Origin: Leucoraja ocellata
Taxonomy: Eukaryota
DNA length: 64,000 nt
Reading direction: 5' to 3'
Assembly: GCA_036785375.1 (NCBI GenBank)
Contig: JAWMAR010000075.1
Coordinates: 7,006,001-7,070,000 of the forward strand
This document shows positions 39,001 through 45,000 of the stretch, in pieces. Position numbers: made by a program. The first letter of the stretch is position 1. Each line of letters opens with the position of its first letter.

Positions 39001-42000
39001 ATTATGAAAAGGCACTACATTAATGCACAAGGCAAAATTTAATGTCAAATGAATGCAGTAAGAAACACATCTGTAGACACTGGAGAAATGATATATTGCT
39101 CAGTCCCAGGAACAAATACAACAGAGATGGGTTCACAACTGAGAAGGTCAAATCAAATGAGGAAGTGAATCAACAGACGGACTCTACAACACCATTCAAA
39201 TTTGTGAAAAGTGATGACACATGTTTTGTTCAAAGCTGGAAAGCAGTGTGGTATATTTGTTTACTCATGCCAACATATAGGAAGCACCATATCCAGAGAA
39301 ATGTTTGTTTTTAGTTAGATCAGATATCTTTGTTGAAAGAAAATTCATTATTGCAGTACATGGAGCATACTAGAATTTCAGACATATACAAAGTCCAGTT
39401 TAGGATGTACTACACTTGCCAAAGTGAGACCATTCCTTTCATCTTTGCTCAAGGCCACCAGGCACCATATCAATTGGAAATTTCACCTTGTCTCACCCAC
39501 TTCACCTTCTCACTGGTAATATCCTATGGGAATCTTACATCCTGAAAATTTATGAATATTGATTTCATTGATCTTCTCTTCCCCCCCCCCCCCCTCCCCC
39601 AACACTCCAGTAGTCATATGAAGAGAAATACCCTGAGGTGAAGCATTCATGACCTTTTCTTTCAAAACCACACAGACTCTGTAATCAGTTTCTATTTTCC
39701 CTAGTGCATATTTTCCTCTCACCTTGATGATGGATTATTACCATTCAGATGAATGGATTTTTAAATGGTAAAAAACTCAAGGGAGAAATGAATCTTTGGA
39801 GTTTTGGACCCTGCCGGCTGTGGCTTAATTGATTTAAGACACAGGTCAATAGCTTAATATCATTCAAATGAAGTTCATTAATTTATAATAACTTATTTTG
39901 CCATTTATTTTATTTAAATCGTGTAACTTTTGCAATCTTCGTCATGAGGCTTTGGCAGACTGAATGTATCTTGTATAATCATTAAAATACATCAGAATCA
40001 GGAGTTGACATTTCAGTCTTTTAAGCCCATTCTGCCATCCATCAAGGGCACGGGTAATCTTCTATCCCTGTGTCATTTTCATGAACCATTCTCATATTAG
40101 GTGATCCCCTGAATTTTTGTAATGAAATTATGACCAGGTGTTGAGGATTCAGGTCAATGAAAGAAGAAAGAACATTTCAGGTCAACAATCAATTGTCTTT
40201 ATTATAGTGAAATACAGCAACAACATTAATAAAGTAGCAACCTCCACTCTTTTGTGTCTTCACTGATTCGATCAACGAGTCTCATGGCCTTGTGCCCATC
40301 GGAAACTCTTGTATTTGCGATGGCTGGGTCTGGAAAATTAGAACAATGGCACCATTTTGCATCACAGTTCAAGATGCATTCTCTCAGTTTAGTTTAATTT
40401 ATTGTCATGTGTACCGAGGTACAGTGAAACGTTTGTGTTGCGTACTAACCCAGTCAGCAGAAAGACAATACATGATTACAATCGATCCATTTACAGAATA
40501 TAGATACATGATAAGGGAATAACGTTTAGTGCAAGGTAAAGCTAGCAAAGTCTGATCATGAATAGTCCGAAGGTTGCCAAAGCGGTAGATAGTAGTTCAG
40601 CACTGCTCTCTGGTTGTGATAGGATGGTTCAGTTGGGATGAAACTGGAAACAGCTGGGAAGAAACTGTCCCTGAATCTGGTGGTGTGCCTCTCTCGTCCC
40701 CGAAGGTAAAGTCCTGTTAGATCACTCACAACATGCACTTACACAACTATTAATTCCCACTTCTCTAACCTTCAAACAAAAGTTGACTTTGTTTTTAAAA
40801 CTTGCTGTTCTTCTTTGTGCTGAAACATTACTAACTTTATTACATCAGGCACCAAGCTACTCTCAGCTGTCTCTGAAGAAGGGTCTAGACCCGAAACGTC
40901 ACCTATGTCTTTTCTCCATAGATGCTGCCTCACCCGCTGAGTTTCTCCAGCATTTTTTGTCTACTTTCAATTTTTCCAGCATCTGCAGTTCCTTCTTAAA
41001 CAAAGCTACTCTCGGCTGTCTCTGAGACAAAATATGTTTTTTAAATTCCTTTTGCTAAATTGCAGGTGGCTCTATGGTTTATTGGTTATTCTAAGTGAGC
41101 CCCAGCATTTTCCCAAGCACCTAATAGTTTTTCTATGCAGGTCTGTTTGCTTGACATGTTGCGCTGTTAGCAACCAACTCCATCTTTGCTGAGAAGCTTG
41201 TTTACAATAGATATTGTGTTTCAATATCGAGTAATTTATCAATCTTTGATTTGGATAAACTTTACAGCGTTTGGGAGTAGAACGTTCCGGGGCTGTCAAT
41301 TCACTTTGAGATTAATTCCTCATCAGCCCTGATTGGCTATCCTCTGAGGCTTGACCATCTGGATCTAGGCTCTTCCTCTAGAGGAAACATTCCCCCGGAA
41401 TAGAAAGATTAAACGAGAATTTACCGTTTGAAGTTTGATCTTTATTTTATGAGAAGTTGAGGTGAGGGATTACGTGAAGAGCCCACTAGCCCGCATGCGC
41501 ATCAATCTTCAGAGCAGCTGTATGAAACCACAGACTAGTTGCTGACCTAAGCTATAGAAGGATTAACGAGCCTAGAACTACCGAATTATCTTTATGAGAA
41601 GTTGGGTTGCGAGTGGAGGGCACGTAATCCCTCACTTCAACTTCTCATAAAATAAAGATCAAACTTCAAACGGTAAGTTCTCGTTTAATCTATCTTATTT
41701 CATTTTGAAGTCATGTGAGTGATTACGTGAAGACTTCAAAGCTCTATGGTTTCATGCAGTAACCCAATCTGTGTGTGAAACACTTAAACAGATAAACCAT
41801 TAATGGTAGGAAAAAACATGGGTTATTAATATCATGATGCTAACTTGCATCCATGGCCATTGTTCTTAACCGGACCATAGTCGCAATAGACTGTTGTTAG
41901 ACAATAACTCATGCAACACCGTGCTGAATTCTATCTGCAAATACCCAGACATATTCAACCAAATGTTATAATTTATTAACCCGCATTAAATAAGCCTCAT

Positions 42001-45000
42001 GCTGTGTGATGAAAGGGAAAATCCATTCTATTGGCTGCTGATGAGCCATCAGCAATATCTTGAGACTATTGAATACCAAAAATAACTATCTTTCATCTCA
42101 TAGGTACTAGCAAACTGAGTGCACTTGTATACCTAATGACATCCCCGATCTCATTTTTGCATATTACCTAAAACTCGATGACTCAATGCCCTTTAATCTG
42201 AGTAGGGCAGCATAGGCTTTCACCACTAGCTTTGTTATCAAATCAGCAGAATCTGTGCCTTATGTGTATAGATATGGCAGCGTATACAACTACAAGATCG
42301 ATTCTCTAAATCGGGTAAATTGCAGAAAGCCAATCATCCATCTTAAACTGGGTAAGTAAACCCATGATCAGATTAGCCAAATGCTAACCCGATTCGGCCT
42401 GCACCATGTTTCTGTAATCTTGAAAAGTATCAGAAATATACCCCTCTAGTCCTTAGCCAGACCACTTATCCTCAGATGAGCTGTCACTGATTGCACTCGG
42501 AACCCCTGTTCCTCTATTGATCCTACGGAATCCTAAGCACTAGGATTCAGGCACATAGACATGTTCGGAGTCATGTTCGGAGTCAGTTCCATACTGATCT
42601 CTGACACTCTCTTAGAGTGGGAGAAATAGTGCACCCCGAACCAGGCGTTGTCACATGCATATGCCTCGGACTGCCTGTGCATGCTTCCATAACACAGAGC
42701 ATATTTTGTGACACCATCTCCGATATTCTTTTGAGTGGGAGGAATATTCCATCCCTGAACCAGAGGTAGCTACAGGCATATGACTTGAACTGACTGTGCA
42801 TGCTTCCGTAATACGGAGCATAATATTTGGCACCATCTCCGTCACTTCTTTCATCCGAGTGAGAGGACATATGCAACCCTGAACCTGGAGCTGCCTCAGG
42901 CAGGTGTGCATATACTTTGGCACCATCTCCATCACCCCGTTCATCCGAGTGGGAGGAATATTGCAACCCTGAACCAGGAGCTGCTTCAGGCATATGTGCA
43001 TATACTTTGGCACCATTTCCACCACTCCTTTCATCCGAGTGGGAGGAAAATTGCAACCCTGAACCAGGAGCTGCTGCCTGACAAGCCTTCGTAACACAGA
43101 GCATTTCGTGTGCCACCAACTGATTCATCAGATGTTCTAATTGAGACAAACGCCCAATCACATCTGCCATAGATGTCCCAAATCATCCGACAAGACTAGT
43201 CCCACAGCCTTGGCTTTGACTTTGCCCCGACTCGGGGTTGTCAGGCTGCTCCCTTCAGCAGCCGAACCTGGACTAGCTGTGCAGATCGGTGATCTGTTGG
43301 TATCATCATTATACTTACCAGACAGGTTGCACCTGCTAGTGACTCCGAGTCCTTGCTCCCTTCTGGAGCCCCAACGGAGTATTACAGGGAAGGACTGGAG
43401 CGCCTCTGGACCCCATATGACTCGGATGAACCGGCATTATAATCGGAGTCACCTCTTCCCGATAGTCTGCGAGACATAGTGGGAGAAATACTGCAACCCT
43501 GCTAGGTGATGTCACATCATATTACGCTCATATGATGAAAAGAAGCATATCCCCATAAATCAGAGATTCGACTGCTCTATCGATATCCACATAGTTGGAG
43601 TCTCTTATAAAAGAATCTCCAACAGTCCCCTCTGGTGAGCGGAAATTACCATGACGCCACCAAGTGTAGCTCCCACAGGTGTCTGATAGGAGCTTCCTAA
43701 GCCAGGAGCTCTGGACTGCAATGGCAAGTCCAATTTCACTACACCATTGGTGTATGTGTTAATAAAAGTCCTTTGTAATTATCATTTTTAATATAAACTT
43801 TGTTGGAATGATAAGATATATCGTTATATTGCCAAAGAATTAAACATGACCTTTGAATGCTATCTACCACGATAGTCACAAACGTGACCGAGTGGCGATC
43901 GCTATAAATGCCAACTCTATAGCCGCCCAAAAATAAAGCATACACTATATGCTGCTGCAGCGTAGCTGAGCCCCTCAGCTAGCAGTAACTATGTTTAAAA
44001 ATTGCTCGGTGCTACGGCAGCTGAGCTTACCTGAGCGGTAGCTCCTGGCTGTGGCTATTTTTAACTCACCGGCTGCTGCGAAACCTCCTGCAGCGATTGT
44101 TGACCTGGCTACACCGGCAGCCACAATTTATGAATCCCAGCTCCTATGGAGCCCCACGGCGGCCTCCAATTTCAGCCGCATGCTCCCGTGCGGAGCTTGA
44201 ATGGCGGCCCAAACCTCGGCCACCTCCATCAAACTACTCCGGGCCCGCTATTGCAGCGGCCCGCTGGAAGTAAAATTGACTTACCTGCCAGAACAGTTTC
44301 GAACTGCTCCGACTCGCGCGCTATGCGTCCGCGTATTTGCGGGCTGGCGGGCTCTTCACGTAGTCACTCATGTGACTTCGAAATAAAATCCACTGTTGCG
44401 AAAGTGAGACAATTCTTTTCATGTCAGCTCATATTGTACACAGTGTATCAGATGCAGACTCACCAAGACTCTATATCAATCTTTACATTTGACACCACTT
44501 GTGATGAAGGCCAATATTTCATTTCTGTAGGAAAAGACTGCAAATGCTGGTTTTCACCGAAGATAGACACAAAATGCTGGAGTAACTCAGCGGGTCAGGC
44601 AACATGTCTGGATAGAAAGAATGGGTGACATTTTGGGTCGAGAACCTTCTTCAGACTGAGAGTCAGGGGAAAGGAAACGAGGGACATAGAAGGGTAAGGT
44701 GCGAAAAACAAGAGATCAAAGGGGATGAAGTTCAAGGAAAGTGTAGAATAGATCATTGTTAGCTAGGGGAAGCTGTCAACAAGGCATACTATGTAAAATT
44801 TAATCAGGAGGACAGTCAGACTGGTTGGAGAACTTGGATGGGGGAGGGATGGAGAGAGAGGAGAAGCAAGGTTTATTTGAAGTTAGAGAGGTCAATATTC
44901 ATACCGCTGGGTTGTAAGCAGCCCAAGCTAAATATGAGGTGCTGTTCCTCCAATTTGCGTAGAGCCTCACTCTGACAGTTGAGGAGGCCCAGGATAGAAA

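What the first reader, a model, noticed from the sequence alone, without database searches (positions are those of the whole stretch)
41399..44389. Non-autonomous DIRS1-like retroelement with intact circularisation signals
Seen: 41621-41690 is a near-perfect reverse complement of the left terminus (41406-41476). It runs directly into ~41695-41733, the reverse complement of the right terminus (44354-44389), so it is an internal copy of the end-to-end circle junction. The termini are also inverted repeats of each other and no TSD is evident. Known: this ITR+ICR layout defines DIRS1 tyrosine-recombinase retrotransposons. At only ~3 kb, with no recognisable RT/RNase H/YR ORF, it keeps cis signals only. 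Inference: a trans-mobilised non-autonomous DIRS family, which is rarely described.
Basis: partly seen in the sequence, partly recalled or inferred. Interest (0 to 1): 0.68.

Follow-up and report, generated by a model that had tools for sequence, protein, structure and literature searches.

The report
Gene-less DIRS1-like retroelement copy
A 3-kb mobile-element copy keeps the full set of end and junction signals of DIRS1-type retrotransposons but encodes none of their enzymes, so it most likely depended on another element's enzymes to insert.

Summary
Read on the minus strand, 41399-44389 (2991 nt) has the published DIRS1-like layout. It has a 52-nt left inverted terminal repeat (ITR), a two-part internal complementary region (ICR), a 125-nt spacer, a 52-nt right ITR and a 45-nt right extension. 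The two ICR halves (37 and 79 nt) are complementary to the two ends and overlap by 3 nt. The element begins and ends ATT, and the ICR overlap reads AAT. No target-site duplication is seen.

No RT, RNase H, methyltransferase, recombinase or GAG-derived domain was found: 0 of 52 open stretches matched in Pfam. The longest open stretch is a by-product of tandem repeats.

The ICR and the termini differ at 8 of 112 positions plus one indel. That is too little decay to have erased enzyme genes, so the copy probably already lacked them when it inserted.

Whether it belongs to an amplified, trans-mobilised family could not be tested, because no eukaryotic genome DNA was searchable. The window holds no sibling and no DIRS partner. 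A non-autonomous DIRS-order element, TOC1, is already in print.

Verdict: the architecture is confirmed, the lack of coding capacity is confirmed, and the family claim is open.

The parts
41399..44389 (-). Whole element, 2991 nt. Read on the minus strand it begins ATT (44389-44387) and ends ATT (41401-41399).
   Evidence: The bounds come from the ends of the ICR/terminus matches. No further copy in the window.
44338..44389 (-). Left (5') terminus, the left ITR, 52 nt. Its outer 37 nt are complementary to the left ICR half.
   Evidence: (I5, I6).
43901..44389 (-). G+C- and CpG-rich 5' part: GC 0.54, CpG observed/expected 0.91, against 0.32-0.45 in the flanks. A promoter or 5' leader role is inferred only.
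42615..43074 (.). Internal tandem repeats: period 119 x 1.9 and period 90 x 2.9. A 24-nt core recurs 6 times up to 43501.
   Evidence: (D1-D4, D6).
42583..43170 (-). ATG ORF of 195 aa inside the open stretch 42586-43182, lying over the tandem repeats. Probably not a gene.
   Evidence: Four of 6 frames are open across 42863-43078. No homologue in the near or longer length bands. The 3 HMMER hits are repeat-on-repeat matches and 0 of 3 carry RT or YR. PDB best E 0.46.
41734..42582 (-). A+T-richer stretch upstream of the ICR with no recognisable content (GC 0.40).
41697..41733 (-). Left ICR half, 37 nt, complementary to the first 37 nt of the element (44389-44353), 32 of 37.
   Evidence: (I6).
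41621..41699 (-). Right ICR half, 79 nt, complementary to the last 78 nt of the element (41476-41399): 3 mismatches and 1 indel.
   Evidence: (I4).
41697..41699 (-). 3-nt overlap of the two ICR halves, the 'circular junction'. It reads AAT on the minus strand, complementary to the terminal ATT.
   Evidence: Published layout in PMC3266345 (passages).
41496..41620 (-). 125-nt spacer between the ICR and the right ITR. It contains a degenerate third copy of the ITR-like sequence (41587-41625, 62%).
   Evidence: D7. No alignable partner next to the left ITR: 269 of 300 shuffles scored at least as high.
41444..41495 (-). Right ITR, 52 nt.
   Evidence: (I5).
41399..41443 (-). Right extension, 45 nt. 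It is complementary to the right ICR half only and has no partner in the left terminus.
41441..41446 (-). AATAAA hexamer on the minus strand, 42 nt before the element's end. It may be a polyadenylation signal that would end the transcript inside the right terminus (inferred).

Best explanation
This is one copy, on the minus strand, of a non-coding derivative of a DIRS1-like tyrosine-recombinase retrotransposon. It keeps all the cis signals and none of the genes.

The proposed mechanism follows the published DIRS1 model and is inferred here, not shown. A transcript starts in the 5' terminus and ends inside the 3' terminus. A reverse transcriptase supplied by an autonomous DIRS1-like element copies it. 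The two ends of the single-stranded cDNA anneal side by side on the ICR, which restores the missing end sequence and brings the ends together at the 3-nt junction. A tyrosine recombinase supplied in trans then recombines that trinucleotide with an identical one in the genome, leaving no target-site duplication.

The copy is no longer young. Its ICR and termini have drifted about 7% apart.
For: Shown here:
- The complete lITR ... lICR-rICR-spacer-rITR-rE layout.
- ICR halves that overlap by 3 nt reading AAT, with the element starting and ending ATT. This is the commonest type among 28 annotated DIRS1-like elements, of which 23 begin and end NTT (PMC3266345 passages).
- Each ICR half follows its own terminus: 28 of 33 and 32 of 33, against 22-23 of 33 for the cross pairs. 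Twelve of 14 consecutive columns are invariant in all four sequences. Both match the published fine structure.
- The extension-bearing terminus and the ICR lie on the same side, as in animal DIRS1-like elements.
- No target-site duplication.
- An AATAAA 42 nt before the end.

Non-coding:
- 0 of 52 open stretches match any Pfam family better than E 0.04.
- 4 of 4 minus-strand stretches have no PDB relative below E 0.46.

Already gene-less at insertion (inference):
- The model predicts that ICR and termini are identical at insertion. They now differ at only 8 of 112 positions plus 1 indel. That is too little to erase RT or YR homology.
- The 2.6-kb interior is tandem repeats plus unrecognisable sequence, not gene remnants.

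Trans action is plausible. DIRS-1 RT made cDNA from a truncated DIRS-1 transcript (PMC7192593, section 21 read whole), and the ICR is essential for the cycle.
Against: - Only one copy is seen. The window has 0 further matches, and no eukaryotic genome could be searched, so 'family' and 'partner' are untested.
- No DIRS-type RT or YR lies anywhere in the window among stop-free stretches of at least 75 aa (169 of the 179 listed were scanned; the other 10 lie in the element region and were covered).
- The ITR (52 nt) is shorter than the published range of 66-316 nt, and the element (2991 nt) is shorter than any row I saw (3974-6283).
- In Dictyostelium the truncated construct did not complete a cycle, so full trans-mobilisation of a DIRS element has not been shown by experiment.
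- The strand assignment rests on layout alone, because no gene gives a direction.
Confidence: 0.55

Rival explanations
1. A once-autonomous DIRS1-like copy that lost its genes at this locus after insertion, through one or more internal deletions or rearrangements. On this reading it is a single decayed copy, not a family.
For: No sibling in the window. The ICR and termini are about 7% diverged, so there has been time for deletions. The direct and inverted repeats inside DIRS elements are expected to favour partial internal deletions (PMC8498967 passage).
Against: No remnant of RT, RH, MT or YR survives at either edge of the interior: 0 of 52 stretches. The roughly 850 nt directly upstream of the ICR, where the recombinase gene ends in canonical elements, has no match. 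2.6 kb of interior without enzyme homology is more than a GAG gene plus leaders would leave. Both termini, the ICR and the junction trinucleotide are all kept.
Confidence: 0.3
2. A composite: a short DIRS1-like remnant whose interior is mostly later nested insertions or locally expanded satellite-like repeats. On this reading the present 3-kb unit never moved as such.
For: Tandem repeats occupy 42615-43074. Composition is patchy: GC is 0.31 at 43761-43900 against 0.54 at 43901-44389.
Against: The interior matches none of the repeat families that are abundant in the window. No transposon protein domain is present. No target-site duplications or terminal repeats of a nested element were seen in the repeat scan.
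Confidence: 0.08
3. Not a DIRS derivative at all: a terminal-inverted-repeat DNA transposon, a foldback element, or a chance arrangement of inverted repeats.
For: Inverted termini are present and no RT is present.
Against: No target-site duplication and no transposase. A TIR or foldback element does not explain an internal, abutting, 3-nt-overlapping copy of both outermost ends. Chance is excluded: E 3e-29 and 7e-6, and 0 of 100 shuffles reached either score.
Confidence: 0.03

Closest known systems
DIRS1-like retrotransposons of animals (for example the fish, frog and lizard elements annotated in PMC3266345, and the Xenopus families in PMC9210276)
   Same: ITRs. Two abutting ICR halves complementary to the two ends, with a 3-nt circular junction. 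ATT...ATT ends with an AAT junction. A right extension only. No target-site duplication. ICR total of 113 nt (published 85-130) and rE of 45 nt (published 9-75).
   Different: No GAG, RT/RH, MT or YR genes. Half the size: 2991 nt against 3974-6283 in the rows seen. An ITR of 52 nt is below the published minimum of 66. A 125-nt spacer separates the ICR from the right ITR, whereas in Xenopus families they overlap slightly. The interior is made of tandem repeats.
TOC1 of Chlamydomonas, called a non-autonomous DIRS retrotransposon (PMC9940879 passage)
   Same: A DIRS-order element without its own enzymes, present alongside enzyme-encoding DIRS elements (TOC3) in the same genome.
   Different: It is from a green alga. 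From recall, not from any call, its repeats are of the split-direct-repeat (PAT-like) type rather than ITR + ICR. Its copy number and activity are documented, whereas here there is a single copy.
Non-autonomous LTR derivatives (the LARD/TRIM/Dasheng type; only a reference-list entry for Dasheng was seen)
   Same: Terminal cis signals are kept, the coding interior is replaced or lost, and mobilisation by a partner's proteins is presumed.
   Different: Those have direct LTRs, integrase-type insertion and target-site duplications. None of these features is present here.
Ngaro/PAT-like YR retrotransposons
   Same: Same order (DIRS). Terminal sequences are repeated internally near the 3' end.
   Different: Their repeats are direct (A1...B1-A2-B2). 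Here the high-identity internal copies are inverted, at 96% and 86%. The only direct similarity (D7, 62-74%) is a by-product of the ITRs.

Membership tests
DIRS1-like retrotransposons (autonomous) | Inverted terminal repeats, which may be imperfect | tested here: met
   41444-41495 against 44338-44389, 52 nt. Inner 33 nt match at 29 of 33, outer 19 nt at 13 of 19. This is shorter than the published 66-316 nt.
DIRS1-like retrotransposons (autonomous) | Two adjacent internal complementary regions, one inverse-complementary to the start and one to the end of the element, overlapping on a 3-bp circular junction | tested here: met
   lICR 41733-41697 against 44353-44389 (32 of 37). rICR 41699-41621 against 41399-41476 (3 mismatches, 1 indel). 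Overlap at 41697-41699. 0 of 100 shuffles reach either score.
DIRS1-like retrotransposons (autonomous) | ICRs near the 3' end, next to the terminus that carries the extension (rE); in the divergent ITR part each ICR follows its own terminus; a short core is shared by both ITRs and both ICRs | tested here: met
   The ICR lies 125 nt from the extension-bearing terminus. Own pairs 28 of 33 and 32 of 33, cross pairs 22-23 of 33. Twelve of 14 consecutive columns are invariant in all four. Calling this side '3'' rests on the layout, since no gene gives a direction.
DIRS1-like retrotransposons (autonomous) | Begins and ends with the same NTT trinucleotide, complementary to the junction; no target-site duplication | tested here: met
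   ATT / ATT / AAT on the minus strand. The 12-nt flanks share nothing further. Published: 23 of 28 elements are NTT, with ATT the commonest.
DIRS1-like retrotransposons (autonomous) | Encodes GAG, RT/RNase H (often a methyltransferase) and a tyrosine recombinase | tested here: not met
   0 of 52 stop-free stretches of at least 30 aa on both strands match any Pfam family better than E 0.04. PDB searches with 4 stretches gave nothing below E 0.46. It is therefore not filed as an autonomous member.
Non-autonomous DIRS-order element (a trans-mobilised family) | Several dispersed copies with the same non-coding interior and the same ends | not testable with these tools
Non-autonomous DIRS-order element (a trans-mobilised family) | An autonomous partner in the same genome with matching termini, ICR and junction trinucleotide | not testable with these tools
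   None in the window. The only RT (31500-32303, minus) has R2 and LINE-1 ORF2p as its best solved relatives. No recombinase domain was found in any of the 169 stretches of at least 75 aa scanned.
Ngaro / PAT-like (split direct repeats) | Terminal sequences repeated internally in direct orientation (A1...B1-A2-B2) | tested here: not met
   The strong internal copies of the ends are inverted (I4 96%, I6 86%). Direct family D7 is only 62-74%.
TIR DNA transposon | Terminal inverted repeats reaching the very ends, a target-site duplication, and a transposase or a MITE-like size | tested here: not met
   The inverted repeat is offset 45 nt from one end. No duplication and no transposase domain.

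The most novel reading that the evidence does not exclude
This copy is one member of an amplified, gene-less DIRS1-like family in a vertebrate-type genome. It would be the tyrosine-recombinase counterpart of SINEs, LARDs and MITEs. Its existence would be natural evidence that the whole DIRS cycle works in trans: reverse transcription, end restoration on the ICR, and recombinase insertion. It would also suggest that about 260 nt of signals are enough in cis: two 52-nt ITRs, a 45-nt extension and a 113-nt ICR.
Probability: 0.35. Interest if true: 0.6.

Novelty: new variant of a known kind. Interest (0 to 1): 0.4.

Why it matters
DIRS elements are the least understood order of retrotransposons. 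In the one experimental system, the ICR is essential and the RT can act in trans, but a truncated element did not complete a cycle (PMC7192593).

A natural family of gene-less elements with the complete ITR/ICR architecture would show, from sequence distribution alone, which signals are sufficient and that all DIRS proteins can serve a foreign transcript. It would also matter for annotation. DIRS finders built on coding domains, such as the approach described in PMC3266345, cannot see such elements, so they would sit among the unclassified repeats.

As a single copy of unknown family size, the present finding is a clean, well-delimited example and a lead. It is not yet that demonstration.

Tried and rejected
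- **Pfam on whole-frame translations:** I repeated it with stop-free stretches.
- **Is the 195/199-aa minus-strand ORF a gene?** Rejected. There is no homologue among proteins of near or longer length. The exhaustive HMMER search gave 3 hits at E up to 1e-3. All are periodic repeat-on-repeat matches: a 30-residue-period LRR protein, a protein whose BLASTP E is 0.67, and a bacterial Ig-repeat protein. None of the 3 carries an RT or YR domain. Four of 6 frames are open over the same repeats.
- **GAG relic in the 5' half?** Four minus-strand stretches against PDB sequences gave nothing below E 0.46. I had in mind the DIRS-GAG-derived domain of LAP2alpha, mentioned in PMC5753468. It did not come back as a hit.
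- **Is the RT at 31500-32303 a DIRS partner?** Rejected. Its best solved relatives are R2 and LINE-1 ORF2p.
- **Longer ITRs hidden in the spacer?** Rejected. 269 of 300 shuffles scored at least as high.
- **An empty-site paralogue of the flanks in the window?** None. The immediate flanks 41004-41398 and 44390-44521 have no match.
- **Rfam:** 0 matches at gathering score for the window, and 4 chance-level rows for the element. tRNA scan: 0.
- **ESM Atlas:** unavailable.
- **Not used:** the third word-index protein search; the one genome-contig scan (prokaryotes only); and the phage, plasmid and E. coli DNA collections (irrelevant to a eukaryotic repeat).
- **Spliced model:** none was made, so there was no joined step.
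- **Human origin:** nothing in the window was taken for human.
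Full report
**1. Observation**

The repeat scan of 40000-46000 and a self-blastn of the element against the window both find three pairs:
- 41402-41476 is the reverse complement of 41621-41695 (75 nt, 96%, E 3e-29).
- 44353-44389 is the reverse complement of 41697-41733 (37 nt, 86%, E 7e-6).
- The two ends are inverted repeats of each other over 41444-41495 / 44338-44389 (52 nt).

A gapped alignment extends the first pair to 41399 / 41699 at the cost of one indel. 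The two internal halves then overlap by three bases, 41697-41699.

In a control, interior matches to the two ends scored 66 and 22. The maximum in 100 shuffles of the interior was 12 for each.

The internal block 41621-41733 is the reverse complement of the sequence that would arise if the two ends were joined.

**2. Anatomy**

Two independent features fix the strand. The published layout of animal DIRS1-like elements (PMC3266345, passages read; PMC8969392, passage) puts the ICRs at the 3' end. It also gives the right terminus an extension (rE) that pairs only with the right ICR.

Here the ICR lies 125 nt from the 41399-side terminus. That same terminus carries 45 outer bases (41399-41443) with no partner at the other end. 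The element is therefore read on the minus strand, in this order:
- left ITR 44389-44338
- interior
- left ICR half 41733-41697
- right ICR half 41699-41621
- spacer 41620-41496
- right ITR 41495-41444
- rE 41443-41399

On that strand it begins ATT and ends ATT, and the ICR overlap reads AAT. In the published table, 23 of 28 annotated elements begin and end NTT. ATT is the commonest, and the trinucleotide is complementary to the 3-bp circular junction.

Over the 33 columns shared by all four sequences, each ICR half follows its own terminus: 28 of 33 and 32 of 33. The four cross pairs reach only 22-23 of 33. Twelve of 14 consecutive columns are invariant in all four. [quoted passage not shown]

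The 12-nt flanks share nothing beyond the trinucleotide, so there is no target-site duplication. An AATAAA lies on the minus strand 42 nt before the end. This would fit a transcript that stops inside the right terminus, as the model requires. That last point is inference.

**3. Interior**

None of the 52 stop-free stretches of at least 30 aa, on both strands over 41300-44500, matches a Pfam family. The best E is 0.04 and every score is far below its cut-off.

The interior contains:
- a G+C- and CpG-rich 5' part (43901-44389; GC 0.54, CpG o/e 0.91, against 0.32-0.45 in the flanks)
- an A+T-rich patch
- tandem repeats of period 119 and 90 at 42615-43074
- about 850 nt of unrecognisable sequence before the ICR

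The 195-aa ATG ORF on the minus strand (42583-43170) lies on the tandem repeats, where 4 of 6 frames are open. It has no homologue in the word-index search at near or longer lengths. An exhaustive HMMER pass over 1.84 billion representatives gave 3 hits at E up to 1e-3. All three are periodic repeat-on-repeat matches, and none carries an RT or recombinase domain. I read the ORF as a by-product of the repeats.

Four minus-strand stretches searched against PDB sequences gave nothing below E 0.46. Rfam gave nothing meaningful, and no tRNA gene was found.

**4. Age, and what it implies**

Under the model the terminal sequences are restored from the ICR at each cycle. The ICR and termini should therefore be identical at insertion; the paper says 'theoretically 100%' for the extensions.

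They now differ at 5 of 37 and 3 of 75 ungapped positions, 7 transitions and 1 transversion in all, plus one indel next to the junction. The two rates do not differ significantly (Fisher p = 0.11).

About 7% pairwise divergence means the copy is not recent and that 'intact' overstates it. The same figure is also far too small to have erased recognisable RT or recombinase homology. The absence of enzyme genes is therefore a matter of content, not decay. Either they were already absent when the copy inserted (my preferred reading), or they were removed cleanly by later deletion. I give no absolute age, because no call gives a substitution rate for the host.

**5. Surroundings**

The window is repeat-rich eukaryotic DNA:
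- a SINE-like repeat with at least 15 copies
- a Tc1-type HTH fragment at 1225-1557
- an ALKBH8_N match at 18781-19428
- an RT at 31500-32303 on the minus strand, whose best solved relatives are R2 and LINE-1 ORF2p, so it is a LINE and not a DIRS partner

No recombinase domain was found among the 169 stop-free stretches of at least 75 aa scanned across the window. These are 169 of the 179 listed; the other 10 lie in the element region and were covered. The element has no second copy in the window, and its immediate flanks have no paralogue there.

DIRS elements are reported as present in cartilaginous and bony fishes, amphibians and non-avian reptiles, and as absent from birds and mammals (PMC4350176 and PMC5753468, passages).

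**6. Mechanism**

I commit to the published DIRS1 cycle (Cappello's model as summarised in PMC7192593) run with borrowed proteins:
1. A transcript runs from the left terminus to a point inside the right terminus.
2. A partner's RT makes single-stranded cDNA.
3. Both cDNA ends anneal on the ICR, so that the missing bases are restored and the ends meet at the trinucleotide.
4. A partner's tyrosine recombinase inserts the element at a matching genomic trinucleotide.

What is shown here is the presence and geometry of every cis signal and the absence of genes. Every step of the cycle, and the trans supply, is inferred. In Dictyostelium the ICR is essential and the RT acted in trans on a truncated element. 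That construct did not complete a cycle, however (section 21 read whole).

**7. Comparison and novelty**

The element passes every structural test for DIRS1-like elements and fails the coding test. I therefore file it as a non-coding derivative with DIRS1-like architecture, not as an autonomous member.

It is not Ngaro- or PAT-like, because the internal copies of the ends are inverted rather than direct. It is not a TIR transposon.

It differs from the annotated elements in several ways:
- size: 2991 nt against 3974-6283 in the rows I saw
- ITR length: 52 nt against a published minimum of 66
- the 125-nt spacer
- the repeat-filled interior

Literature searches for non-autonomous DIRS elements found little:
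- 33 papers held at least 2 of the 3 terms; 25 were listed
- 5 papers held at least 1 of the 6 phrases; 4 were listed
- 20 papers; 15 were listed
- 2 papers

The one explicit case is TOC1 of Chlamydomonas (PMC9940879 passage).

The Xenopus study reports that 36 of 75 Repbase DIRS-like families show some degeneration of repeats or ORFs, with details in a supplementary table I could not open. Repbase could not be searched either. Gene-less DIRS1-like families may therefore already be catalogued.

**8. Verdict**

The 'trans-mobilised family' claim remains an untested but reasonable hypothesis. It could be settled by a plain search of the host genome, which these tools could not perform.

Interest is moderate: this is a clean specimen of a rarely described variant of a known kind.

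Noticed in passing
window 40872-41003, 44522-44663, 45570-45662, 21361-21495, 24464-24689, 34667-34933, 36885-36984, 52643-52837 and others: A SINE-like interspersed repeat of about 90-260 nt, with at least 15 copies in both orientations, brackets the element at a distance. One pair, 44666-44825 / 45399-45558, forms a 160-nt inverted repeat at 88%. From recall only, its core resembles SINEs of cartilaginous fishes. This was not tested.
   Followed up: partly
window 31500-32303 (-): An open stretch of 268 aa matches RVT_1 (E 3.5e-30). Its best solved relatives are R2 and LINE-1 ORF2p, so this is a LINE-type reverse transcriptase, not a DIRS partner. Neighbouring minus-strand stretches gave no endonuclease or RNase H match.
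   Followed up: partly
window 18781-19428 (+): A 216-aa open stretch matches Pfam ALKBH8_N (E 2e-14). From recall, this model often hits the tails of LINE reverse transcriptases. I did not examine it further.
   Followed up: no
window 1225-1557 (+): Fragments of a Tc1/Sleeping-Beauty-type transposase HTH region, with weak matches below the cut-offs.
   Followed up: no
window 44811-45391 and 36261-36839; 40400-40686 and 26915-27192: Two further repeat families of unknown type: 599 nt at 78% and 287 nt at 77%.
   Followed up: no
window 43901-44389: Inside the element, CpG observed/expected is 0.91 at GC 0.54, against 0.32-0.45 in the flanks. This is CpG-island-like and unexpected for a copy whose repeats have drifted about 7%.
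   Followed up: partly
window 42616-43501: A 24-nt core recurs six times inside the element. Five copies lie within the tandem array and one lies 440 nt away (family D3). Its role is unknown.
   Followed up: no
window 63649-63784: A run of 136 N. It was left as it is.
   Followed up: no
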